A program made the position numbers and the translations under genes. The notes beneath the pieces were generated by a model that was not told the origin of the DNA, ran no database searches, and saw only the letters and a program-made list of their open reading frames with translations. Below are positions 142 to 11,837 of a stretch of 13,371 nucleotides of DNA, piece by piece. Origin of the DNA: Naegleria gruberi (taxonomy: Eukaryota); the NCBI GenBank assembly GCA_000004985.1, contig GG738995.1; one strand, given 5' to 3'. Each line of letters starts with the position of its first letter. Position 1 is the first letter of the stretch.

Positions 142-281
142 TGCATGCATGTGGTGAAGCATCATGATGATGATCTAATTGTTTGTTTGATGCATGTATC
201 AAACTTGTAATCCATTGCATGCATCTAATAACACATCCATTCAACCTTCACATGCCGAATCATCATGGTTAAACATGCATG
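142..281. promoter_or_regulatory. Cluster of TGCATG-core motifs in the 5' flank of the large + ORF, including three 8-bp perfect palindromes (TGCATGCA/CATGCATG)
   Basis: Read directly from the sequence. tgcatgcatg at 142-151, tgcatg at 191-196, tgcatgcat at 216-224, catgcatg at 274-281. That is five TGCATG hexamers in 140 bp, against an expectation of ~0.05 for this base composition. CATGCATG and TGCATGCA are each their own reverse complement. TGCAT is the reported recognition core of APSES-type fungal regulators (Efg1 / Phd1 / Sok2 class). Confidence 0.35.
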
Positions 282-676
282 TCTATCATTTGTATTCGAA
301 TGGCTAATAGTCGGGCAATGGGAAATTAGAGAACTATTATTGAGAATAATTCCACTTATTTAATACTAACCACTTATAGACTTTCTAATTTAATCATTTG
401 ATTACATAACAACTCTCGCCAAGGCTTCATGACTTTGGTTTACAACAAAAAAATCATCAACAAGCATCTACATTCAATCCAGTTATTACATTGACCTATC
501 AATCTCAAATATCAATAATAGGTATGTTGATTGAAAACAACAACACTGTATCTATTGGAATGAATGTACATTTGGCATGTTCTATAATTGGTAATCAAAC
601 TTATTAAAGAAAGTCAAATAACAGCAACAACAAGAGTGATTAATTTTATTAAAAAATAATCAAGAACACATATCCA

Positions 677-3600
677 ATGAAGAAGAACCAGAATTCCAAC
701 AACATGTCATTCATTGATGAAACTAGCAATGTTACAAAGAAAGCAAAAGTGAAAAAGAGAAATAAGGAATTGAAAATTAAACAATCGAGATTGAGAAAAC
801 CATTACAAAATGATAATTTATTGAAAAATTATTTTGAATTTGATAAGCAACAATTAACAGAAAGTGATTTGACTATTTACAAAATTATTAATNNNNNNNN
901 NNNNNNNNNNNNNNNNNNNNNNNNNNNNNNNNNNNNNNNNNNNNNNNNNNNNNNNNNNNNNNNNNNNNNNNNNNNNNNNNNNNNNNNNNNNNNNNNNNNN
1001 NNNNNNNNNNNNNNNNNNNNNNNNNNNNNNNNNNNNNNNNNNNNNNNNNNNNNNNNNNNNNNNNNNNNNNNNNNNNNNNNNNNNNNNNNNNNNNNNNNNN
1101 NNNNNNNNNNNNNNNNNNNNNNNNNNNNNNNNNNNNNNNNNNNNNNNNNNNNNNNNNNNNNNNNNNNNNNNNNNNNNNNNNNNNNNNNNNNNNNNNNNNN
1201 NNNNNNNNNNNNNNNNNNNNNNNNNNNNNNNNNNNNNNNNNNNNNNNNNNNNNNNNNNNNNNNNNNNNNNNNNNNNNNNNNNNNNNNNNNNNNNNNNNNN
1301 NNNNNNNNNNNNNNNNNNNNNNNNNNNNNNNNNNNNNNNNNNNNNNNNNNNNNNNNNNNNNNNNNNNNNNNNNNNNNNNNNNNNNNNNNNNNNNNNNNNN
1401 NNNNNNNNNNNNNNNNNNNNNNNNNNNNNNNNNNNNNNNNNNNNNNNNNNNNNNNNNNNNNNNNNNNNNNNNNNNNNNNNNNNNNNNNNNNNNNNNNNNN
1501 NNNNNNNNNNNNNNNNNNNNNNNNNNNNNNNNNNNNNNNNNNNNNNNNNNNNNNNNNNNNNNNNNNNNNNNNNNNNNNNNNNNNNNNNNNNNNNNNNNNN
1601 NNNNNNNNNNNNNNNNNNNNNNNNNNNNNNNNNNNNNNNNNNNNNNNNNNNNNNNNNNNNNNNNNNNNNNNNNNNNNNNNNNNNNNNNNNNNNNNNNNNN
1701 NNNNNNNNNNNNNNNNNNNNNNNNNNNNNNNNNNNNNNNNNNNNNNNNNNNNNNNNNNNNNNNNNNNNNNNNNNNNNNNNNNNNNNNNNNNNNNNNNNNN
1801 NNNNNNNNNNNNNNNNNNNNNNNNNNNNNNNNNNNNNNNNNNNNNNNNNNNNNNNNNNNNNNNNNNNNNNNNNNNNNNNNNNNNNNNNNNNNNNNNNNNN
1901 NNNNNNNNNNNNNNNNNNNNNNNNNNNNNNNNNNNNNNNNNNNNNNNNNNNNNNNNNNNNNNNNNNNNNNNNNNNNNNNNNNNNNNNNNNNNNNNNNNNN
2001 NNNNNNNNNNNNNNNNNNNNNNNNNNNNNNNNNNNNNNNNNNNNNNNNNNNNNNNNNNNNNNNNNNNNNNNNNNNNNNNNNNNNNNNNNNNNNNNNNNNN
2101 NNNNNNNNNNNNNNNNNNNNNNNNNNNNNNNNNNNNNNNNNNNNNNNNNNNNNNNNNNNNNNNNNNNNNNNNNNNNNNNNNNNNNNNNNNNNNNNNNNNN
2201 NNNNNNNNNNNNNNNNNNNNNNNNNNNNNNNNNNNNNNNNNNNNNNNNNNNNNNNNNNNNNNNNNNNNNNNNNNNNNNNNNNNNNNNNNNNNNNNNNNNN
2301 NNNNNNNNNNNNNNNNNNNNNNNNNNNNNNNNNNNNNNNNNNNNNNNNNNNNNNNNNNNNNNNNNNNNNNNNNNNNNNNNNNNNNNNNNNNNNNNNNNNN
2401 NNNNNNNNNNNNNNNNNNNNNNNNNNNNNNNNNNNNNNNNNNNNNNNNNNNNNNNNNNNNNNNNNNNNNNNNNNNNNNNNNNNNNNNNNNNNNNNNNNNN
2501 NNNNNNNNNNNNNNNNNNNNNNNNNNNNNNNNNNNNNNNNNNNNNNNNNNNNNNNNNNNNNNNNNNNNNNNNNNNNNNNNNNNNNNNNNNNNNNNNNNNN
2601 NNNNNNNNNNNNNNNNNNNNNNNNNNNNNNNNNNNNNNNNNNNNNNNNNNNNNNNNNNNNNNNNNNNNNNNNNNNNNNNNNNNNNNNNNNNNNNNNNNNN
2701 NNNNNNNNNNNNNNNNNNNNNNNNNNNNNNNNNNNNNNNNNNNNNNNNNNNNNNNNNNNNNNNNNNNNNNNNNNNNNNNNNNNNNNNNNNNNNNNNNNNN
2801 NNNNNNNNNNNNNNNNNNNNNNNNNNNNNNNNNNNNNNNNNNNNNNNNNNNNNNNNNNNNNNNNNNNNNNNNNNNNNNNNNNNNNNNNNNNNNNNNNNNN
2901 NNNNNNNNNNNNNNNNNNNNNNNNNNNNNNNNNNNNNNNNNNNNNNNNNNNNNNNNNNNNNNNNNNNNNNNNNNNNNNNNNNNNNNNNNNNNNNNNNNNN
3001 NNNNNNNNNNNNNNNNNNNNNNNNNNNNNNNNNNNNNNNNNNNNNNNNNNNNNNNNNNNNNNNNNNNNNNNNNNNNNNNNNNNNNNNNNNNNNNNNNNNN
3101 NNNNNNNNNNNNNNNNNNNNNNNNNNNNNNNNNNNNNNNNNNNNNNNNNNNNNNNNNNNNNNNNNNNNNNNNNNNNNNNNNNNNNNNNNNNNNNNNNNNN
3201 NNNNNNNNNNNNNNNNNNNNNNNNNNNNNNNNNNNNNNNNNNNNNNNNNNNNNNNNNNNNNNNNNNNNNNNNNNNNNNNNNNNNNNNNNNNNNNNNNNNN
3301 NNNNNNNNNNNNNNNNNNNNNNNNNNNNNNNNNNNNNNNNNNNNNNNNNNNNNNNNNNNNNNNNNNNNNNNNNNNNNNNNNNNNNNNNNNNNNNNNNNNN
3401 NNNNNNNNNNNNNNNNNNNNNNNNNNNNNNNNNNNNNNNNNNNNNNNNNNNNNNNNNNNNNNNNNNNNNNNNNNNNNNNNNNNNNNNNNNNNNNNNNNNN
3501 NNNNNNNNNNNNNNNNNNNNNNNNNNNNNNNNNNNNNNNNNNNNNNNNNNNNNNNNNNNNNNNNNNNNNNNNNNNNNNNNNNNNNNNNNNNNNNNNNNNN

Positions 3601-5476
3601 NNNNNNNNNNNNNNNNNNNNNNNNNNNNNNNNNNNNNNNNNNNNNNNNNNNNNNNNNNNNNNNNNNNNNNNNNNNNNNNNNNNNNNNNNNNNNNNNNNNN
3701 NNNNNNNNNNNNNNNNNNNNNNNNNNNNNNNNNNNNNNNNNNNNNNNNNNNNNNNNNNNNNNNNNNNNNNNNNNNNNNNNNNNNNNNNNNNNNNNNNNNN
3801 NNNNNNNNNNNNNNNNNNNNNNNNNNNNNNNNNNNNNNNNNNNNNNNNNNNNNNNNNNNNNNNNNNNNNNNNNNNNNNNNNNNNNNNNNNNNNNNNNNNN
3901 NNNNNNNNNNNNNNNNNNNNNNNNNNNNNNNNNNNNNNNNNNNNNNNNNNNNNNNNNNNNNNNNNNNNNNNNNNNNNNNNNNNNNNNNNNNNNNNNNNNN
4001 NNNNNNNNNNNNNNNNNNNNNNNNNNNNNNNNNNNNNNNNNNNNNNNNNNNNNNNNNNNNNNNNNNNNNNNNNNNNNNNNNNNNNNNNNNNNNNNNNNNN
4101 NNNNNNNNNNNNNNNNNNNNNNNNNNNNNNNNNNNNNNNNNNNNNNNNNNNNNNNNNNNNNNNNNNNNNNNNNNNNNNNNNNNNNNNNNNNNNNNNNNNN
4201 NNNNNNNNNNNNNNNNNNNNNNNNNNNNNNNNNNNNNNNNNNNNNNNNNNNNNNNNNNNNNNNNNNNNNNNNNNNNNNNNNNNNNNNNNNNNNNNNNNNN
4301 NNNNNNNNNNNNNNNNNNNNNNNNNNNNNNNNNNNNNNNNNNNNNNNNNNNNNNNNNNNNNNNNNNNNNNNNNNNNNNNNNNNNNNNNNNNNNNNNNNNN
4401 NNNNNNNNNNNNNNNNNNNNNNNNNNNNNNNNNNNNNNNNNNNNNNNNNNNNNNNNNNNNNNNNNNNNNNNNNNNNNNNNNNNNNNNNNNNNNNNNNNNN
4501 NNNNNNNNNNNNNNNNNNNNNNNNNNNNNNNNNNNNNNNNNNNNNNNNNNNNNNNNNNNNNNNNNNNNNNNNNNNNNNNNNNNNNNNNNNNNNNNNNNNN
4601 NNNNNNNNNNNNNNNNNNNNNNNNNNNNNNNNNNNNNNNNNNNNNNNNNNNNNNNNNNNNNNNNNNNNNNNNNNNNNNNNNNNNNNNNNNNNNNNNNNNN
4701 NNNNNNNNNNNNNNNNNNNNNNNNNNNNNNNNNNNNNNNNNNNNNNNNNNNNNNNNNNNNNNNNNNNNNNNNNNNNNNNNNNNNNNNNNNNNNNNNNNNN
4801 NNNNNNNNNNNNNNNNNNNNNNNNNNNNNNNNNNNNNNNNNNNNNNNNNNNNNNNNNNNNNNNNNNNNNNNNNNNNNNNNNNNNNNNNNNNNNNNNNNNN
4901 NNNNNNNNNNNNNNNNNNNNNNNNNNNNNNNNNNNNNNNNNNNNNNNNNNNNNNNNNNNNNNNNNNNNNNNNNNNNNNNNNNNNNNNNNNNNNNNNNNNN
5001 NNNNNNNNNNNNNNNNNNNNNNNNNNNNNNNNNNNNNNNNNNNNNNNNNNNNNNNNNNNNNNNNNNNNNNNNNNNNNNNNNNNNNNNNNNNNNNNNNNNN
5101 NNNNNNNNNNNNNNNNNNNNNNNNNNNNNNNNNNNNNNNNNNNNNNNNNNNNNNNNNNNNNNNNNNNNNNNNNNNNNNNNNNNNNNNNNNNNNNNNNNNN
5201 NNNNNNNNNNNNNNNNNNNNNNNNNNNNNNNNNNNNNNNNNNNNNNNNNNNNNNNNNNNNNNNNNNNNNNNNNNNNNNNNNNNNNNNNNNNNNNNNNNNN
5301 NNNNNNNNNNNNNNNNNNNNNNNNNNNNNNNNNNNNNNNNNNNNNNNNNNNNNNNNNNNNNNNNNNNNNNNNNNNNNNNNNNNNNNNNNNNNNNNNNNNN
5401 NNNNNNNNNNNNNNNNNNNNNNNNNNNNNNNNNNNNNNNNNNNNNNTCAATACTATTAAAAAACAGTTTATTCTAA
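677..5476 (+). CDS. Large + strand ORF, partially visible. Only the N-terminal 72 codons (677-892) and a putative last 10 codons (5447-5476) are readable, and the rest is N-masked. The N-terminus is Lys/Arg-rich and NLS-like (KKAKVKKRNKELKIKQSRLRKP). Product unknown.
   Basis: ATG at 677 is the first ATG after an in-frame TAA at 650-652. The frame stays open for 72 codons until the mask begins. Mask length (4554) is divisible by 3, so the track frame continues to TAA at 5474-5476, but frame continuity across the mask cannot be verified. Composition (K/N/S/Q-rich) matches the other genes here. Confidence 0.45.
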   Translation: MKKNQNSNNMSFIDETSNVTKKAKVKKRNKELKIKQSRLRKPLQNDNLLKNYFEFDKQQLTESDLTIYKIINXXXXXXXXXXXXXXXXXXXXXXXXXXXXXXXXXXXXXXXXXXXXXXXXXXXXXXXXXXXXXXXXXXXXXXXXXXXXXXXXXXXXXXXXXXXXXXXXXXXXXXXXXXXXXXXXXXXXXXXXXXXXXXXXXXXXXXXXXXXXXXXXXXXXXXXXXXXXXXXXXXXXXXXXXXXXXXXXXXXXXXXXXXXXXXXXXXXXXXXXXXXXXXXXXXXXXXXXXXXXXXXXXXXXXXXXXXXXXXXXXXXXXXXXXXXXXXXXXXXXXXXXXXXXXXXXXXXXXXXXXXXXXXXXXXXXXXXXXXXXXXXXXXXXXXXXXXXXXXXXXXXXXXXXXXXXXXXXXXXXXXXXXXXXXXXXXXXXXXXXXXXXXXXXXXXXXXXXXXXXXXXXXXXXXXXXXXXXXXXXXXXXXXXXXXXXXXXXXXXXXXXXXXXXXXXXXXXXXXXXXXXXXXXXXXXXXXXXXXXXXXXXXXXXXXXXXXXXXXXXXXXXXXXXXXXXXXXXXXXXXXXXXXXXXXXXXXXXXXXXXXXXXXXXXXXXXXXXXXXXXXXXXXXXXXXXXXXXXXXXXXXXXXXXXXXXXXXXXXXXXXXXXXXXXXXXXXXXXXXXXXXXXXXXXXXXXXXXXXXXXXXXXXXXXXXXXXXXXXXXXXXXXXXXXXXXXXXXXXXXXXXXXXXXXXXXXXXXXXXXXXXXXXXXXXXXXXXXXXXXXXXXXXXXXXXXXXXXXXXXXXXXXXXXXXXXXXXXXXXXXXXXXXXXXXXXXXXXXXXXXXXXXXXXXXXXXXXXXXXXXXXXXXXXXXXXXXXXXXXXXXXXXXXXXXXXXXXXXXXXXXXXXXXXXXXXXXXXXXXXXXXXXXXXXXXXXXXXXXXXXXXXXXXXXXXXXXXXXXXXXXXXXXXXXXXXXXXXXXXXXXXXXXXXXXXXXXXXXXXXXXXXXXXXXXXXXXXXXXXXXXXXXXXXXXXXXXXXXXXXXXXXXXXXXXXXXXXXXXXXXXXXXXXXXXXXXXXXXXXXXXXXXXXXXXXXXXXXXXXXXXXXXXXXXXXXXXXXXXXXXXXXXXXXXXXXXXXXXXXXXXXXXXXXXXXXXXXXXXXXXXXXXXXXXXXXXXXXXXXXXXXXXXXXXXXXXXXXXXXXXXXXXXXXXXXXXXXXXXXXXXXXXXXXXXXXXXXXXXXXXXXXXXXXXXXXXXXXXXXXXXXXXXXXXXXXXXXXXXXXXXXXXXXXXXXXXXXXXXXXXXXXXXXXXXXXXXXXXXXXXXXXXXXXXXXXXXXXXXXXXXXXXXXXXXXXXXXXXXXXXXXXXXXXXXXXXXXXXXXXXXXXXXXXXXXXXXXXXXXXXXXXXXXXXXXXXXXXXXXXXXXXXXXXXXXXXXXXXXXXXXXXXXXXXXXXXXXXXXXXXXXXXXXXXXXXXXXXXXXXXXXXXXXXXXXXXXXXXXXXXXXXXXXXXXXXXXXXXXXXXXXXXXXXXXXXXXXXXXXXXXXXXXXXXXXXXXXXXXXXXXXXXXXXXXXXXXXXXXXXXXXXXXXXXXXXXXXXXXSILLKNSLF
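893..5446. other. N-masked block, 4554 nt. No sequence information.
   Basis: Run of n. Length is a multiple of 3. Confidence 0.99.
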
Positions 5477-6526
5477 ATGAAATGTCCAAACTGGAAAGTG
5501 AAATTCCATTTGAGTTTGTGCTGGATTTGTATTGGCTGAATTCTTTCTCTTTTGATATTTTCTTCTTCTTTTCAAATGTTTTGGATTTGAAATTACAATA
5601 CAATTTTTGAGTGGAGTTTTGAATGTTGTTGATAATGAACTGTTATTACCAATTGAGGATACATTACTTGTAGATGATGAGGAGGATGAAATTGAGATTT
5701 TTCTCTTTTCTGATTCGAATGAAGATACATTAGAAATCTTTCTCTTTCTCTTTAGAATACGATTATCATTGAATGTATTGTTTACATTAGTTTGTTGTTG
5801 GAGTGGCATCATGGATGTTTCAATTGATGATGATGGTGGTGATTGATCCACATATTGTTGATAAGGATTCTTAATGCTCATCAGAAATTGATATGATTCT
5901 AAATTGGGTAAAAGTACCTTATCAGCAGTGTCAGTATTAGAAATGGTATTGGTCAGGCTATTTTCGTTATGGTTATTGAATGGTTGAGGAGGTGAGGTGT
6001 TAAGAGTCAGAGATAATGTTTCTGTTGGTGATAGGAACAGTTGAGTTGATGGTTGAGGTGATGGAAATACAATATGGGATTTGGATAAGTGTGGTGGAGT
6101 GTCCTTCATATCATCATCATGATCATCAATAGGATTCATAACAGTTGAGCTGATGTTAGTACATTGGATATTATTGAAGGCTGACATTTGTTGAATAGAA
6201 GGCTTGTCATTAGGCTTTCTATTAAATAATTGTTGCTTTGGATTTGTCATCATCTTTAATAATTCCCAACTCTGCATAAAATCAATAACATCAAGATTCA
6301 GACTTGGTTCAACACATTGATTGTTAATTGAGTAGTTTGAGAATGATGATGAAAATTGAGTGACCATTCCACAAAGAACATCAACTGTACAGGTATGAGC
6401 AGGAGAGGAATATTCATTTATCCAACTTGAAGTCGAGTTATTGTTCATCATAATGTTTGTTTTTTTGAGAATATTCATTGAATATTTCTTCTGCATAAAC
6501 TCCAAAGAGAATTGCATCTCGCCCAA
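5447..6526. repeat. Tandem duplication, copy 1: gene A plus 21 nt of its 3' flank
   Basis: Colinear with 6878-7727. The offset is 1431 nt at the stop codons and 1419 nt at the MQSW codon. The 3'-flank fragments also match: actattaaaaaacagtttattc vs atattattaaaaaaacaatttattc. Confidence 0.8.
5468..6517 (-). CDS. Gene A, the complete tandem paralog. 349 aa, S/T/N/Q-rich protein with a bipartite-NLS-like KRKRKISNVSSFESEKRK motif and a C-terminal basic cluster KHLKRRRKYQKRK, ending ...MEFHFPVWTFHLE. Function unknown, probably nuclear.
   Basis: Long open frame on the minus strand, with stop TAA at 5470-5468. The track's start at 6526 is TTG, and the first ATG is at 6517-6515 (MQFSLEF...). An in-frame TGA lies 4 codons upstream of the TTG. 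The protein is ~75% identical to the visible part of gene B, and every indel between them is a multiple of 3 nt. This shows the frame is under coding constraint. Confidence 0.75.
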   Translation of the reverse strand: MQFSLEFMQKKYSMNILKKTNIMMNNNSTSSWINEYSSPAHTCTVDVLCGMVTQFSSSFSNYSINNQCVEPSLNLDVIDFMQSWELLKMMTNPKQQLFNRKPNDKPSIQQMSAFNNIQCTNISSTVMNPIDDHDDDMKDTPPHLSKSHIVFPSPQPSTQLFLSPTETLSLTLNTSPPQPFNNHNENSLTNTISNTDTADKVLLPNLESYQFLMSIKNPYQQYVDQSPPSSSIETSMMPLQQQTNVNNTFNDNRILKRKRKISNVSSFESEKRKISISSSSSSTSNVSSIGNNSSLSTTFKTPLKNCIVISNPKHLKRRRKYQKRKNSANTNPAQTQMEFHFPVWTFHLE

Positions 6527-6839: not shown

Positions 6840-6901
6840 GAATATTAAATTATTCGGACACACAGAGAATATAAAACAAATATTATTAAAAAAACAATTT
6901 A
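6840..6901 (-). terminator. Putative 3'-end formation signals of gene B
   Basis: Minus-strand sense reads ...TTTCATTTAGAATAAATTGTTTTTTTAATAATATTTGTTTTATATTCTCTGTG. AATAAA overlaps the stop codon and is followed by a TTTTATAT (TATATA-type) efficiency-like element. This is the yeast-type poly(A) signal pattern. Confidence 0.3.
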
Positions 6902-7727
6902 TTCTAAATGAAAAGTCCAAACTGGAAAGTGAAATTCCATTTGAGTTTGAGCAGGATTTGTATTGGCTGAATTCTTTCTCTTTTGATATTTTCTTCTTCT
7001 TTTCAAATGTTTTGGATTTGAAATTACAATACAATTATTGAATGATTGTTGTGAGTGTACATTTGTTGATAATGAACTATTATTACCAATTGAGGATGAA
7101 TTACTTGAACATGTTGTAGGTGGTGTGGTGGATGAAATTGAGGTTTTTCTCTTTTCTGATTCGAATGAAGATACATTAGAAATCTTTCTCTTTCTCTTTA
7201 GAATACGATTATCATCCTTCTTGTTGAATGTATTGTTTACATTAGTTTGTTGTTGGAGTGACATCATGGATATATCATTTGATGGTGGTGGTGATTGATC
7301 ATAATGTTCATGATAAGGATTCTTGGGAAATTGATATGATTCTAAATTGGTTAAAAGTACCTTATCAGCAGTGTCAGTATTAGAAATGGTATTGGCCAGC
7401 CTATTTTCAATAGCATTAGCATTGAATGGTTGCTGATGAGGAGATGGTGATGTGTTAAGTGTCAGAAGAGATAATGTCTCAGTTGATGATGGTAATACAA
7501 TATGGCATGTGGATGAGTGTGATGGAGTGCACTTAATATCAGCATCAATAGAATTCATAACAGTTGAGGTGATTTTAGTACATTGGATATTATTGAAGGC
7601 TGACATTTGTTGAATAGAAGGCTTGTCAAAAGGCTTTCTATTAAATAATTGTTGCTTTGGAGTTGTCATCATCTTTAATAATTCCCAACTCTGCATAAAC
7701 TCAATAACATCAAGATTTAGACTGTCA
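6878..7727. repeat. Tandem duplication, copy 2: visible part of gene B plus its 3' flank. Continues into mask 2.
   Basis: Same alignment as copy 1. Confidence 0.8.
6899..7727 (-). CDS. Gene B, the tandem paralog of gene A. The C-terminal 276 codons are visible and the 5' end runs into mask 2. Same architecture as A: conserved FMQSWELLKMMT.PKQQLFNRKP block, ANTISNTDTADKVLL block, KRKRK-X10-KRK, and an identical 45-aa C-terminus.
   Basis: Stop TAA at 6901-6899. The frame is open all the way to the mask edge (…DSLNLDVIEFMQSWELLK…). It is codon-colinear with gene A, with in-frame indels only. The track's start at 7696 is merely the first visible ATG. Homology to A residues 70-83 continues upstream of it. 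Confidence 0.7.
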
Positions 7728-10700
7728 NNNNNNNNNNNNNNNNNNNNNNNNNNNNNNNNNNNNNNNNNNNNNNNNNNNNNNNNNNNNNNNNNNNNNNNNN
7801 NNNNNNNNNNNNNNNNNNNNNNNNNNNNNNNNNNNNNNNNNNNNNNNNNNNNNNNNNNNNNNNNNNNNNNNNNNNNNNNNNNNNNNNNNNNNNNNNNNNN
7901 NNNNNNNNNNNNNNNNNNNNNNNNNNNNNNNNNNNNNNNNNNNNNNNNNNNNNNNNNNNNNNNNNNNNNNNNNNNNNNNNNNNNNNNNNNNNNNNNNNNN
8001 NNNNNNNNNNNNNNNNNNNNNNNNNNNNNNNNNNNNNNNNNNNNNNNNNNNNNNNNNNNNNNNNNNNNNNNNNNNNNNNNNNNNNNNNNNNNNNNNNNNN
8101 NNNNNNNNNNNNNNNNNNNNNNNNNNNNNNNNNNNNNNNNNNNNNNNNNNNNNNNNNNNNNNNNNNNNNNNNNNNNNNNNNNNNNNNNNNNNNNNNNNNN
8201 NNNNNNNNNNNNNNNNNNNNNNNNNNNNNNNNNNNNNNNNNNNNNNNNNNNNNNNNNNNNNNNNNNNNNNNNNNNNNNNNNNNNNNNNNNNNNNNNNNNN
8301 NNNNNNNNNNNNNNNNNNNNNNNNNNNNNNNNNNNNNNNNNNNNNNNNNNNNNNNNNNNNNNNNNNNNNNNNNNNNNNNNNNNNNNNNNNNNNNNNNNNN
8401 NNNNNNNNNNNNNNNNNNNNNNNNNNNNNNNNNNNNNNNNNNNNNNNNNNNNNNNNNNNNNNNNNNNNNNNNNNNNNNNNNNNNNNNNNNNNNNNNNNNN
8501 NNNNNNNNNNNNNNNNNNNNNNNNNNNNNNNNNNNNNNNNNNNNNNNNNNNNNNNNNNNNNNNNNNNNNNNNNNNNNNNNNNNNNNNNNNNNNNNNNNNN
8601 NNNNNNNNNNNNNNNNNNNNNNNNNNNNNNNNNNNNNNNNNNNNNNNNNNNNNNNNNNNNNNNNNNNNNNNNNNNNNNNNNNNNNNNNNNNNNNNNNNNN
8701 NNNNNNNNNNNNNNNNNNNNNNNNNNNNNNNNNNNNNNNNNNNNNNNNNNNNNNNNNNNNNNNNNNNNNNNNNNNNNNNNNNNNNNNNNNNNNNNNNNNN
8801 NNNNNNNNNNNNNNNNNNNNNNNNNNNNNNNNNNNNNNNNNNNNNNNNNNNNNNNNNNNNNNNNNNNNNNNNNNNNNNNNNNNNNNNNNNNNNNNNNNNN
8901 NNNNNNNNNNNNNNNNNNNNNNNNNNNNNNNNNNNNNNNNNNNNNNNNNNNNNNNNNNNNNNNNNNNNNNNNNNNNNNNNNNNNNNNNNNNNNNNNNNNN
9001 NNNNNNNNNNNNNNNNNNNNNNNNNNNNNNNNNNNNNNNNNNNNNNNNNNNNNNNNNNNNNNNNNNNNNNNNNNNNNNNNNNNNNNNNNNNNNNNNNNNN
9101 NNNNNNNNNNNNNNNNNNNNNNNNNNNNNNNNNNNNNNNNNNNNNNNNNNNNNNNNNNNNNNNNNNNNNNNNNNNNNNNNNNNNNNNNNNNNNNNNNNNN
9201 NNNNNNNNNNNNNNNNNNNNNNNNNNNNNNNNNNNNNNNNNNNNNNNNNNNNNNNNNNNNNNNNNNNNNNNNNNNNNNNNNNNNNNNNNNNNNNNNNNNN
9301 NNNNNNNNNNNNNNNNNNNNNNNNNNNNNNNNNNNNNNNNNNNNNNNNNNNNNNNNNNNNNNNNNNNNNNNNNNNNNNNNNNNNNNNNNNNNNNNNNNNN
9401 NNNNNNNNNNNNNNNNNNNNNNNNNNNNNNNNNNNNNNNNNNNNNNNNNNNNNNNNNNNNNNNNNNNNNNNNNNNNNNNNNNNNNNNNNNNNNNNNNNNN
9501 NNNNNNNNNNNNNNNNNNNNNNNNNNNNNNNNNNNNNNNNNNNNNNNNNNNNNNNNNNNNNNNNNNNNNNNNNNNNNNNNNNNNNNNNNNNNNNNNNNNN
9601 NNNNNNNNNNNNNNNNNNNNNNNNNNNNNNNNNNNNNNNNNNNNNNNNNNNNNNNNNNNNNNNNNNNNNNNNNNNNNNNNNNNNNNNNNNNNNNNNNNNN
9701 NNNNNNNNNNNNNNNNNNNNNNNNNNNNNNNNNNNNNNNNNNNNNNNNNNNNNNNNNNNNNNNNNNNNNNNNNNNNNNNNNNNNNNNNNNNNNNNNNNNN
9801 NNNNNNNNNNNNNNNNNNNNNNNNNNNNNNNNNNNNNNNNNNNNNNNNNNNNNNNNNNNNNNNNNNNNNNNNNNNNNNNNNNNNNNNNNNNNNNNNNNNN
9901 NNNNNNNNNNNNNNNNNNNNNNNNNNNNNNNNNNNNNNNNNNNNNNNNNNNNNNNNNNNNNNNNNNNNNNNNNNNNNNNNNNNNNNNNNNNNNNNNNNNN
10001 NNNNNNNNNNNNNNNNNNNNNNNNNNNNNNNNNNNNNNNNNNNNNNNNNNNNNNNNNNNNNNNNNNNNNNNNNNNNNNNNNNNNNNNNNNNNNNNNNNNN
10101 NNNNNNNNNNNNNNNNNNNNNNNNNNNNNNNNNNNNNNNNNNNNNNNNNNNNNNNNNNNNNNNNNNNNNNNNNNNNNNNNNNNNNNNNNNNNNNNNNNNN
10201 NNNNNNNNNNNNNNNNNNNNNNNNNNNNNNNNNNNNNNNNNNNNNNNNNNNNNNNNNNNNNNNNNNNNNNNNNNNNNNNNNNNNNNNNNNNNNNNNNNNN
10301 NNNNNNNNNNNNNNNNNNNNNNNNNNNNNNNNNNNNNNNNNNNNNNNNNNNNNNNNNNNNNNNNNNNNNNNNNNNNNNNNNNNNNNNNNNNNNNNNNNNN
10401 NNNNNNNNNNNNNNNNNNNNNNNNNNNNNNNNNNNNNNNNNNNNNNNNNNNNNNNNNNNNNNNNNNNNNNNNNNNNNNNNNNNNNNNNNNNNNNNNNNNN
10501 NNNNNNNNNNNNNNNNNNNNNNNNNNNNNNNNNNNNNNNNNNNNNNNNNNNNNNNNNNNNNNNNNNNNNNNNNNNNNNNNNNNNNNNNNNNNNNNNNNNN
10601 NNNNNNNNNNNNNNNNNNNNNNNNNNNNNNNNNNNNNNNNNNNNNNNNNNNNNNNNNNNNNNNNNNNNNNNNNNNNNNNNNNNNNNNNNNNNNNNNNNNN

Positions 10701-11837
10701 NNNNNNNNNNNNNNNNNNNNNNNNNNNNNNNNNNNNNNNNNNNNNNNNNNNNNNNNNNNNNNNNNNNNNNNNNNNNNNNNNNNNNNNNNNNNNNNNNNNN
10801 NNNNNNNNNNNNNNNNNNNNNNNNNNNNNNNNNNNNNNNNNNNNNNNNNNNNNNNNNNNNNNNNNNNNNNNNNNNNNNNNNNNNNNNNNNNNNNNNNNNN
10901 NNNNNNNNNNNNNNNNNNNNNNNNNNNNNNNNNNNNNNNNNNNNNNNNNNNNNNNNNNNNNNNNNNNNNNNNNNNNNNNNNNNNNNNNNNNNNNNNNNNN
11001 NNNNNNNNNNNNNNNNNNNNNNNNNNNNNNNNNNNNNNNNNNNNNNNNNNNNNNNNNNNNNNNNNNNNNNNNNNNNNNNNNNNNNNNNNNNNNNNNNNNN
11101 NNNNNNNNNNNNNNNNNNNNNNNNNNNNNNNNNNNNNNNNNNNNNNNNNNNNNNNNNNNNNNNNNNNNNNNNNNNNNNNNNNNNNNNNNNNNNNNNNNNN
11201 NNNNNNNNNNNNNNNNNNNNNNNNNNNNNNNNNNNNNNNNNNNNNNNNNNNNNNNNNNNNNNNNNNNNNNNNNNNNNNNNNNNNNNNNNNNNNNNNNNNN
11301 NNNNNNNNNNNNNNNNNNNNNNNNNNNNNNNNNNNNNNNNNNNNNNNNNNNNNNNNNNNNNNNNNNNNNNNNNNNNNNNNNNNNNNNNNNNNNNNNNNNN
11401 NNNNNNNNNNNNNNNNNNNNNNNNNNNNNNNNNNNNNNNNNNNNNNNNNNNNNNNNNNNNNNNNNNNNNNNNNNNNNNNNNNNNNNNNNNNNNNNNNNNN
11501 NNNNNNNNNNNNNNNNNNNNNNNNNNNNNNNNNNNNNNNNNNNNNNNNNNNNNNNNNNNNNNNNNNNNNNNNNNNNNNNNNNNNNNNNNNNNNNNNNNNN
11601 NNNNNNNNNNNNNNNNNNNNNNNNNNNNNNNNNNNNNNNNNNNNNNNNNNNNNNNNNNNNNNNNNNNNNNNNNNNNNNNNNNNNNNNNNNNNNNNNNNNN
11701 NNNNNNNNNNNNNNNNNNNNNNNNNNNNNNNNNNNNNNNNNNNNNNNNNNNNNNNNNNNNNNNNNNNNNNNNNNNNNNNNNNNNNNNNNNNNNNNNNNNN
11801 NNNNNNNNNNNNNNNNNNNNNNNNNNNNNNNNNNNNN
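7728..11837. other. N-masked block, 4110 nt. No sequence information.
   Basis: Run of n. Length is a multiple of 3. Confidence 0.99.

What the first reader, a model, noticed from the sequence alone, without database searches (positions are those of the whole stretch)
5468..5605. Invariant 45-aa C-terminal module with only synonymous differences, and a sharp switch from ~75% to 100% protein identity
The last 45 codons plus stop (NCIVISNPKHLKRRRKYQKRKNSANTNPAQTQMEFHFPVWTFHLE*) differ at 3 of 138 nt between the copies (A 5468-5605 vs B 6899-7036). All three are third-position synonymous changes (Thr ACA/ACT, Ala GCA/GCT, Pro CCA/CCT). The residues immediately upstream already differ (A …TPLK vs B …QSFN). 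Strong purifying selection on a C-terminal basic-plus-aromatic module would explain this. A recent gene-conversion tract followed by a few mutations would also explain it. In either case this is the functionally important part of the family: a second basic cluster (NLS or DNA/RNA-binding) followed by the aromatic FHFPVWTFHLE tail.
Basis: seen in the sequence. Interest (0 to 1): 0.6.

Follow-up and report, generated by a model that had tools for sequence, protein, structure and literature searches.

The report
Conserved tail of Naegleria orphan proteins
Two neighbouring genes of the amoeba Naegleria gruberi encode fast-changing, mostly unstructured proteins whose last 41-45 amino acids (a basic stretch plus an aromatic end) are held almost constant by selection; this is a real but fairly ordinary conserved tail in an uncharacterised gene family seen so far only in the N. 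gruberi lineage.

Summary
Copies A (5468-5605, minus strand) and B (6899-7036) differ at 3 of 138 nt, and all three changes are third-position synonymous.

The window is a complete 13,371-bp scaffold of Naegleria gruberi NEG-M. A and B are tandem paralogs of an unannotated family ("predicted protein") with no Pfam or PDB match.

- Synonymous divergence is the same in the tail (dS 0.13) and in the rest of the gene (0.11).
- Non-synonymous change is 0 of 110 sites in the tail against 54 of 510 elsewhere (p = 2e-5).
- At the nucleotide level the tail block (96% identity) is no more conserved than other blocks (95-96%).

Every complete family member found keeps the tail, ending at the same C-terminal residue. 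These are four paralog types in N. gruberi and three genes of a close relative in one metagenome. The most distant type has tail dS of about 0.8-1.5 with dN of about 0.12-0.18.

The tail is not invariant across the family. It is also not the only conserved island: an LxLDVxDFMQSWELL helix and a KRKRK/Ser block are conserved too.

AlphaFold predicts a disordered protein. The best reading is a composite linear motif, a nuclear-import basic cluster plus a C-terminal aromatic docking peptide. The binding partner is unknown.

The parts
5468..5605 (-). Copy A: the last 45 codons plus the stop codon, which is the C-terminal module in the finding. The family-wide conserved core is SNPKHL...FHLE, at 5471-5590.
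6899..7036 (-). Copy B: the same C-terminal module plus the stop codon.
5543..5572 (-). Copy A: basic cluster KRRRKYQKRK. It fits the classical monopartite NLS pattern. AlphaFold places it in a helix when the tail is folded alone. The B equivalent is at 6974-7003.
5471..5509 (-). Copy A: aromatic C-terminal peptide MEFHFPVWTFHLE-COOH. F-x-F-P sits at position -11 from the C-terminus in all 12 members. The B equivalent is at 6902-6940.
5468..6517 (-). Gene A: complete short-form CDS of 349 codons plus stop. It is 99% identical to N. gruberi EFC38150 (NAEGRDRAFT_53197).
6899..7727 (-). Gene B: the visible 3' part of a long-form CDS. The reading frame stays open up to the edge of mask 2. The related full-length model EFC38149 is 798 aa.
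6248..6310 (-). Copy A: conserved island 1, EPSLNLDVIDFMQSWELLKMM, a predicted amphipathic helix. The B equivalent is at 7667-7723.
5699..5803 (-). Copy A: conserved island 2, the first basic cluster KRKRK with flanking serines. It is a 35-aa block identical between A and B. The B equivalent is at 7145-7258.
677..892 (+). Start of a third family gene on the opposite strand. Its N-terminal module is 71% identical to the N-terminus of long-form EFC38149. The gene runs into mask 1.

Best explanation
A and B are tandem paralogs of a gene family detected only in the Naegleria gruberi lineage. The proteins are intrinsically disordered and probably nuclear. Most of each protein evolves at about the neutral rate, with many in-frame indels. 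Selection holds three short islands constant.

The C-terminal island has a conserved core of about 41 aa: C-x3-SN-x-[KE]HL-[KT]RRRK[YH][QK]KRK-x4-6-N[PS]AQ-x-[QM]MEF[HN]FP[VI]WTFH-x-E-COOH. I read it as a composite linear motif with two parts:
- a strongly basic cluster that serves as a classical importin-alpha nuclear localisation signal, and may also contact nucleic acid or chromatin;
- an aromatic peptide fixed at the very C-terminus, which docks into a hydrophobic groove of a conserved partner protein and folds on binding.

The upstream helix DFMQSWELL would be a second, effector-type interaction motif. On this reading the protein acts as a disordered adaptor or regulator.

What is shown: protein-level purifying selection on the tail, conservation of the tail across the family, its fixed C-terminal position, and predicted disorder. 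What is inferred: nuclear import, docking to a partner, and the identity of that partner (unknown).
For: - **Selection within the window.** A versus B in the tail has 3 synonymous and 0 non-synonymous differences (dS 0.131). The rest of the gene has dS 0.111 and dN 0.114. Fisher tests give p = 2e-5 for non-synonymous and p = 0.73 for synonymous differences.
- **Both lineages changed.** Comparison with outgroup tails places the synonymous changes on both the A and B lineages, so both copies are constrained.
- **Family-wide conservation.** 22 of the 26 invariant columns in the 11-sequence family alignment lie in the tail.
- **Tail present in all complete members.** This covers the A, B, C and D paralog types and three genes from metagenome ERZ929261. 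All end at H-x-E-stop.
- **Old paralogs.** D-type versus the other tails gives dS 0.76-1.5 and dN 0.12-0.18.
- **Disorder.** The whole-protein AlphaFold model has mean pLDDT 38. Only motif 1 and the tail rise to 52-60. Folded alone, the tail gives a helix over PKHLKRRRKYQKRKNSA (pLDDT about 86) and no regular structure for the aromatic end.
- **NLS pattern.** K[KR]x[KR] occurs in the tail of 11 of 12 members, and every member has a second such match upstream of the tail.
- **No RNA-level explanation.** Folding z-scores are -0.40 and +1.04, and there is no Rfam hit.
Against: - No localisation, binding or expression data exist. A search for the locus tags found no papers, and they are absent from one differentiation dataset.
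- P0008 has a weakened tail cluster (KRREYQKRK) that fails the K[KR]x[KR] pattern.
- AlphaFold often predicts helices for Lys/Arg-rich segments, and classical NLS peptides bind importin in an extended form. The predicted helix fits a nucleic-acid-binding basic helix just as well.
- Among the linked cluster paralogs (A/B-like versus C-like), tail dS is only 0.23-0.52 while the gene bodies are barely alignable. Some past 3'-end conversion between linked copies, in addition to selection, cannot be excluded.
- All estimates rest on 41-45 codons.
Confidence: 0.55

Rival explanations
1. The block is identical because gene conversion recently copied it from one tandem paralog to the other. The three differences are mutations that arose since then.
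For: The copies are tandem, about 1.4 kb apart, with long blocks of 95-96% identity. Two of the three differences are 3 nt apart. Among linked cluster paralogs, tail dS (0.23-0.52) is lower than the near-saturated values seen against the unlinked D type.
Against: - Tail dS (0.131) is not lower than in the rest of the gene (0.111; Fisher p = 0.73).
- The segment with the lowest pS is aa 71-153 (0.023), not the tail (0.120).
- Conversion cannot explain why all the differences are synonymous. At the rate seen in the rest of the gene, about 12 non-synonymous changes would be expected in the tail.
- Conversion also cannot explain conservation in an unlinked paralog and in another organism.
Confidence: 0.05
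2. The tail is a minimal nucleic-acid or chromatin-binding element. A basic alpha-helix would contact DNA, RNA or the nucleosome acidic patch, and the aromatic C-terminal peptide would act as a hydrophobic anchor. This is analogous in principle to arginine-rich motifs or to the CENP-C motif.
For: AlphaFold predicts a 17-residue basic helix with pLDDT about 86. The cluster carries a net charge of about +8 in 10 residues. There is already another NLS-like cluster upstream, so the second one may have a different job. The protein bodies evolve fast and are disordered while the basic-plus-aromatic motif is conserved.
Against: No similarity to any known DNA- or RNA-binding domain was found in Pfam or PDB sequences. 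Helix predictions for Lys/Arg-rich segments are weak evidence. The spacing and sequence do not match the CENP-C motif (my own knowledge of its consensus).
Confidence: 0.2
3. The F-x-F-P in the tail is a DEF-type docking site for an ERK-family MAP kinase, so the family members are MAPK substrates or scaffolds.
For: F-[HN]-F-P is invariant and lies at the same distance (-11) from the C-terminus in 12 of 12 members. It sits in a disordered context.
Against: - No S/T-P phospho-acceptor lies 6-25 residues upstream in any member, and there is no D-site in the tail.
- Strict conservation extends well beyond FxFP (MEF.FP.WTFH.E), which implies a larger interface.
- A 4-residue pattern is easily matched by chance when many motif classes are considered.
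Confidence: 0.08
4. The tail is a non-canonical C-terminal PCNA-interacting (PIP-like) peptide flanked by basic residues, as in p21 or FEN1.
For: Q-x-x-M-x-F-x-F with invariant Q, M and F residues lies near the C-terminus, next to a basic cluster, in all members.
Against: The canonical PIP pattern Q..[ILM]..[FY][FY] is met in 0 of 12 members. Position 7 is His or Asn. The conserved residues after the motif (P.WTFH.E) are not a PIP feature.
Confidence: 0.04
5. The conservation acts on the nucleotide sequence, through an mRNA structure, a regulatory element or an overlapping reading frame, rather than on the protein.
For: About 23 nt of 3'UTR just after the stop codon are also nearly identical between B and the metagenome homolog L002. 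Codon identity in the tails exceeds a codon-usage saturation baseline.
Against: - The folding energy of tail plus 3'UTR is no better than that of shuffled sequence (z = -0.40 and +1.04).
- There is no Rfam hit.
- Differences fall precisely at synonymous positions.
- The alternative-frame ORFs through the tail are changed by those substitutions.
- D-type tails differ at 23-31 of 123 nt yet keep the peptide.
Confidence: 0.03

Closest known systems
N. gruberi NEG-M 'predicted proteins': EFC38150/NAEGRDRAFT_53197 and EFC38101/53310 (A type); EFC38149/53196 and EFC38100/74200 (B type); EFC35884/76456 (the window's own B model); EFC38153/74018 (C type); EFC40497/71657 and EFC35612/76730 (D type)
   Same: True homologs. 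Copy A is 99% identical to EFC38150. All of them carry the tail, ending in FH-x-E.
   Different: None of them has a name, a domain or a published function. The sequences are in databases, but the family and its tail motif have not been described.
DEF / FxFP ERK-docking motif (ELK-1, SAP-1, LIN-1, c-Fos type); consensus taken from my own knowledge
   Same: An invariant F-x-F-P in a disordered region, with a basic cluster upstream.
   Different: No S/T-P acceptor at the usual distance and no hydrophobic phi-x-phi D-site. The conserved block is 13 residues long and fixed at the C-terminus.
C-terminal PIP-box tails with basic flanks (p21, FEN1); consensus taken from my own knowledge
   Same: C-terminal Q-x-x-M ... 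aromatic residues next to Lys/Arg runs in a disordered protein.
   Different: The canonical di-aromatic positions 7-8 are not met (H/N-F). Extra invariant residues follow (P.WTFH.E).
Classical monopartite NLS (SV40 large-T type, K-K/R-x-K/R); from my own knowledge
   Same: KRRRK / KKRK matches the pattern in the tail of 11 of 12 members.
   Different: This is a pattern match only. Import has not been tested. A second cluster upstream makes the tail cluster potentially redundant for import.
CENP-C motif (arginine anchor plus aromatic Y/F-W in a fast-evolving disordered protein); from my own knowledge
   Same: The overall logic is shared: a rapidly diverging disordered body and a short, conserved basic-plus-Trp motif.
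   Different: There is no sequence match. The spacing between the basic and aromatic parts is roughly twice as long. There is no Pfam hit.

Membership tests
N. gruberi tail-bearing orphan family (defined in this report) | C-terminal core SN.[KE]HL.RR..[QK]KRK...AQ..MEF.FP.WTFH.E, ending at the stop codon | tested here: met
   A and B both carry it. It is aligned with all the other members.
N. gruberi tail-bearing orphan family (defined in this report) | Upstream amphipathic motif L.LD[VI].[DE][FI][MVI][QK]SW[EK].L | tested here: met
   Present in A at 6248-6310 and in B at 7667-7723. Also present in P0003, P0010 and the extended L002 ORF.
DEF (FxFP) MAPK-docking motif | F-x-[FY]-P in a disordered region | tested here: met
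   FHFP or FNFP at position -11 in 12 of 12 members. Disorder is shown.
DEF (FxFP) MAPK-docking motif | S/T-P phospho-acceptor about 6-20 residues N-terminal of the motif | tested here: not met
   The pattern [ST]P.{6,25}F.[FY]P matches in 0 of 12 members.
DEF (FxFP) MAPK-docking motif | Physical binding to an ERK-type kinase | not testable with these tools
   Needs a binding assay or complex prediction.
PIP box (PCNA-interacting peptide) | Q-x-x-[ILM]-x-x-[FY]-[FY] | tested here: not met
   0 of 12 members match. Only the relaxed form Q..M...F is present.
Classical monopartite NLS | K-[KR]-x-[KR] basic cluster in an accessible region | tested here: met
   KRRR or KKRK occurs in the tail of 11 of 12 members. 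The region is predicted to lack a fold.
Classical monopartite NLS | Importin-alpha-dependent nuclear accumulation | not testable with these tools
   Needs localisation experiments.
SR-25 nuclear RNA-splicing-associated protein (PF10500) | Score above the Pfam gathering threshold (40 bits) | tested here: not met
   Scores are 14-20 bits and fall only over the Ser/Lys/Arg-rich stretches. This is a compositional match.
Gene-conversion tract | Synonymous divergence inside the tract lower than in flanking homologous sequence | tested here: not met
   pS is 0.120 in the tail against 0.103 in the rest. Per-segment pS ranges from 0.023 to 0.189.

The most novel reading that the evidence does not exclude
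The tail is a previously undescribed composite C-terminal motif, a basic helix followed by the fixed aromatic end MEF-x-FP-x-WTFH-x-E-COOH. It would tether a Naegleria-specific family of very fast-evolving, disordered nuclear proteins to one conserved target, such as chromatin/nucleosomes or a core nuclear machine. The variable bodies and the FxxxWxxLL helix would diversify what is recruited to that target. This would make the tandem cluster a lineage-specific, rapidly diversifying regulator set.
Probability: 0.25. Interest if true: 0.45.

Novelty: new member of a known kind. Interest (0 to 1): 0.3.

Why it matters
The result defines an unannotated, lineage-restricted protein family in a model heterolobosean. 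It also pinpoints the 41 residues that selection protects, which gives a compact handle (a peptide) for finding the binding partner and the localisation signal.

It is also a clean example of an orphan disordered protein evolving at about the neutral rate while short linear motifs stay fixed. Beyond Naegleria biology the impact is modest.

Tried and rejected
- **Domain and structure searches.** Pfam scans of A, B, the tail alone and five relatives gave only sub-threshold compositional hits such as SR-25. The tail found nothing in PDB sequences, even at E <= 10.
- **Exhaustive HMMER search.** A family profile against 1.84 billion representative proteins found only five real clusters, all N. gruberi or one metagenome. 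It also returned one spurious bacterial repeat protein, P0011.
- **Collection scans.** JGI metagenome contigs and IMG/VR viral contigs hold no relatives. A viral or mobile-element origin therefore has no support.
- **DNA of the other N. gruberi copies.** It could not be retrieved; P0001, P0002, P0008 and P0010 are not on record. Comparisons between the scaffold copies are therefore at protein level only.
- **Structure prediction.** The whole-protein model is too poor (pLDDT 38) and the tail-only model is a single helix (pLDDT 66). I did not run fold searches because they would be meaningless.
- **RNA-level checks.** RNA folding, Rfam and tRNA searches were negative.
- **Literature.** No paper mentions the locus tags or the metagenome accession. 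One Naegleria differentiation dataset does not list the genes.
- **Motif patterns.** Canonical PIP box, APIM and D-site patterns are absent from the tail.


Full report
**Where the window comes from.** The window is 31% G+C and has two masked stretches, 893-5446 and 7728-11837. Copy A is 99% identical to N. gruberi EFC38150. The annotated model of copy B (EFC35884, NAEGRDRAFT_76456) sits on a contig of exactly 13,371 bp. The window is therefore a whole small scaffold of Naegleria gruberi NEG-M. Nearly the same tandem gene pair is also annotated on two large scaffolds of 243,952 and 261,328 bp. This scaffold is probably an alternative haplotype or a duplicated segment.

**The observation.**
- On the minus strand, 5468-5605 (A) and 6899-7036 (B) encode the same 45 residues plus a stop codon.
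- Just upstream the proteins diverge sharply: 1 of 10 alignment columns is identical.
- The remaining alignable region is 80% identical over aligned residues, or 70% with gaps counted.
- A run of 45 identical residues is reached in 0.5% of column shuffles.
- A second block of 35 identical residues surrounds the first basic cluster, KRKRK.

**Selection or conversion.**
- Nei-Gojobori counts for the tail are 3.0 synonymous differences over 25.0 synonymous sites (dS 0.131) and 0 non-synonymous differences over 110 sites.
- For the other 216 aligned codons they are 14.2 over 138.2 (dS 0.111) and 53.8 over 509.8 (dN 0.114).
- Synonymous divergence does not differ between tail and rest (p = 0.73). 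Non-synonymous divergence does (p = 2e-5).
- By segment, pS is 0.023, 0.189, 0.048, 0.124 and 0.120 (tail last). The tail sits in the middle of that range and is not a low-divergence tract.
- The gap-free repeat blocks tell the same story. The tail block is 96% identical at the nucleotide level, like blocks D1 (95%), D3 (95%) and D4 (96%).
- What sets the tail apart is therefore only that none of its substitutions changes an amino acid.
- Compared with three outgroup tails, the Thr change is private to A, while the Pro and Ala changes set B apart from its closest relatives. Both lineages have accumulated silent changes only. At the non-synonymous rate seen in the rest of the gene, about 12 such changes would be expected in the tail.

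**The family.**
- Word-indexed searches and one exhaustive HMMER profile search of 1.84 billion representative proteins found only five real clusters.
- N. gruberi has four paralog types:
  - A type: 349-351 aa.
  - B type: 798 aa when modelled in full. Elsewhere it is truncated or split into two models.
  - C type: EFC38153, three gene models beyond A on the same scaffold.
  - D type: EFC40497 and EFC35612, on other scaffolds.
- One ENA metagenome (ERZ929261) holds three further genes: L001 (C-like), L002 (A/B-like) and L003 (D type).
- The D-type protein of the metagenome organism differs from the NEG-M protein at only 8 of 189 aligned positions, so that organism is a close relative.
- Nothing was found in JGI metagenome contigs or in viral contigs.
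- There is no Pfam domain, no PDB sequence match and no literature.
- Every complete member has the tail and stops at the same place, H-x-E-stop.
- 22 of the 26 invariant columns in the 11-sequence alignment lie in the tail.
- The tail is not invariant across the family. B-type copies elsewhere read NCIIIS. The other types differ from A and B at 5-15 of 45 positions, while the rest of the protein differs at 75-82% of columns.

**Deep comparisons.**
- D-type tails against all the others differ at 23-31 of 123 nt, with dS 0.76-1.5 and dN 0.12-0.18. This is long-term purifying selection on the peptide.
- Among the linked A/B/C-like genes, tail dS is lower (0.15-0.52), although the gene bodies are nearly unalignable.
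- Two readings fit that pattern. The bodies may evolve extremely fast: B versus L002 has dS 0.39 and dN 0.26 in the 45 codons before the tail, with large indels further upstream. Alternatively, there may have been some older 3'-end conversion between linked copies.
- The available DNA cannot separate these two readings. Neither changes the conclusion for A versus B.
- The first 23 nt or so of 3'UTR are also shared by B and L002.
- RNA folding of the tail plus 3'UTR is unremarkable (z = -0.40 and +1.04), and Rfam finds nothing.

**Anatomy and likely mechanism.**
- AlphaFold with the family alignment gives a mean pLDDT of 38 for A. The only features are a helix at residues 76-90 (DFMQSWELL, pLDDT about 52) and slightly raised confidence over the tail (52-60).
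- Folded alone, the tail gives a 17-residue helix over PKHLKRRRKYQKRKNSA (pLDDT about 86). The aromatic end has no regular structure (66-71).
- The protein is therefore best seen as intrinsically disordered with three conserved linear motifs:
  - an amphipathic helix;
  - a KRKRK cluster with flanking serines;
  - the tail.
- The tail combines a very basic cluster that fits the classical NLS pattern (11 of 12 members) with an invariant aromatic peptide, MEF-x-FP-x-WTFH-x-E, anchored at the free C-terminus.
- My working model is nuclear import through the basic cluster plus docking of the aromatic C-terminus onto a conserved partner. The upstream helix would be a second interaction surface. Only the selection, conservation and disorder are shown; the rest is inference.
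- I tested motif-level leads as patterns:
  - F-x-F-P (ERK DEF-type) is present in all members, but without the usual S/T-P acceptor or D-site.
  - The canonical PIP box and the APIM motif are absent.
  - A role for the basic helix in nucleic-acid or nucleosome binding remains a serious alternative.

**Verdict.** The sequences are already in public databases as unnamed predicted proteins. The family, its restriction to the N. gruberi lineage and its tail motif appear to be undescribed. This pattern, conserved short motifs in a fast-evolving disordered orphan protein, is well known, so interest is moderate to low.

Noticed in passing
window 677-892 (+), continuing into mask 1: An ORF on the opposite strand starts with MKKNQNSNNMSFIDETSNVT...IKQSRLRKPLQNDNLLKNYFEFDKQQ. 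It is 71% identical (E = 4e-27) to the N-terminus of the 798-aa B-type protein EFC38149, and 82% identical to a partial N. gruberi model on an 8,928-bp contig. A third, long-form family gene, convergent with A, is therefore hidden in mask 1. Whether it carries the tail cannot be seen.
   Followed up: partly
window 6899-7727 (-) and mask 2: The annotated model of B on this scaffold (EFC35884, 235 aa) starts at an internal Met, but the reading frame stays open to the mask edge. The same gene is modelled as 798 aa on one large scaffold and split into two models (260 + 287 aa) on the other. The annotation here is probably truncated.
   Followed up: partly
window about 6056-6304 (A) and about 7487-7723 (B), aa 71-153: Between motif 1 and the middle of the protein, A and B differ by 16 non-synonymous changes but only 1 synonymous change (pN 0.084, pS 0.023). 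This could mean diversifying selection or a younger conversion tract. The difference is not significant on its own (p = 0.2).
   Followed up: partly
window 6876-6898 (B 3'UTR) versus L002 848-870: The first 23 nt or so after the stop codon (ATTGTTTTT.TAATAATATTTGT) are nearly identical between B and the metagenome homolog, and similar in A. All four cluster-type 3'UTRs begin A[CT]TGT. This may be a 3'-end processing signal.
   Followed up: no
window 143-282: There is a cluster of palindromic (G/A)CATGCATG motifs upstream of the plus-strand gene: 5 matches at up to one mismatch, counting both strands, falling at 3 distinct sites, against 0.98 expected. 3 of 200 shuffles reach this count. This could be a promoter element.
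   Followed up: partly
whole window, compared with the N. gruberi scaffolds of 243,952 and 261,328 bp: The same A/B tandem pair is annotated three times in the assembly, with the copies differing at about 1-6% of protein positions outside the tail. This suggests uncollapsed haplotypes or a recent segmental duplication.
   Followed up: partly
L001, L002 and L003 (ENA metagenome ERZ929261): One metagenome holds a close N. gruberi relative. Its D-type protein is about 95% identical to NEG-M, but its cluster-type genes are only about 56-57% identical in locally aligned stretches, with large indels. Evolutionary rates therefore differ greatly within one family.
   Followed up: partly
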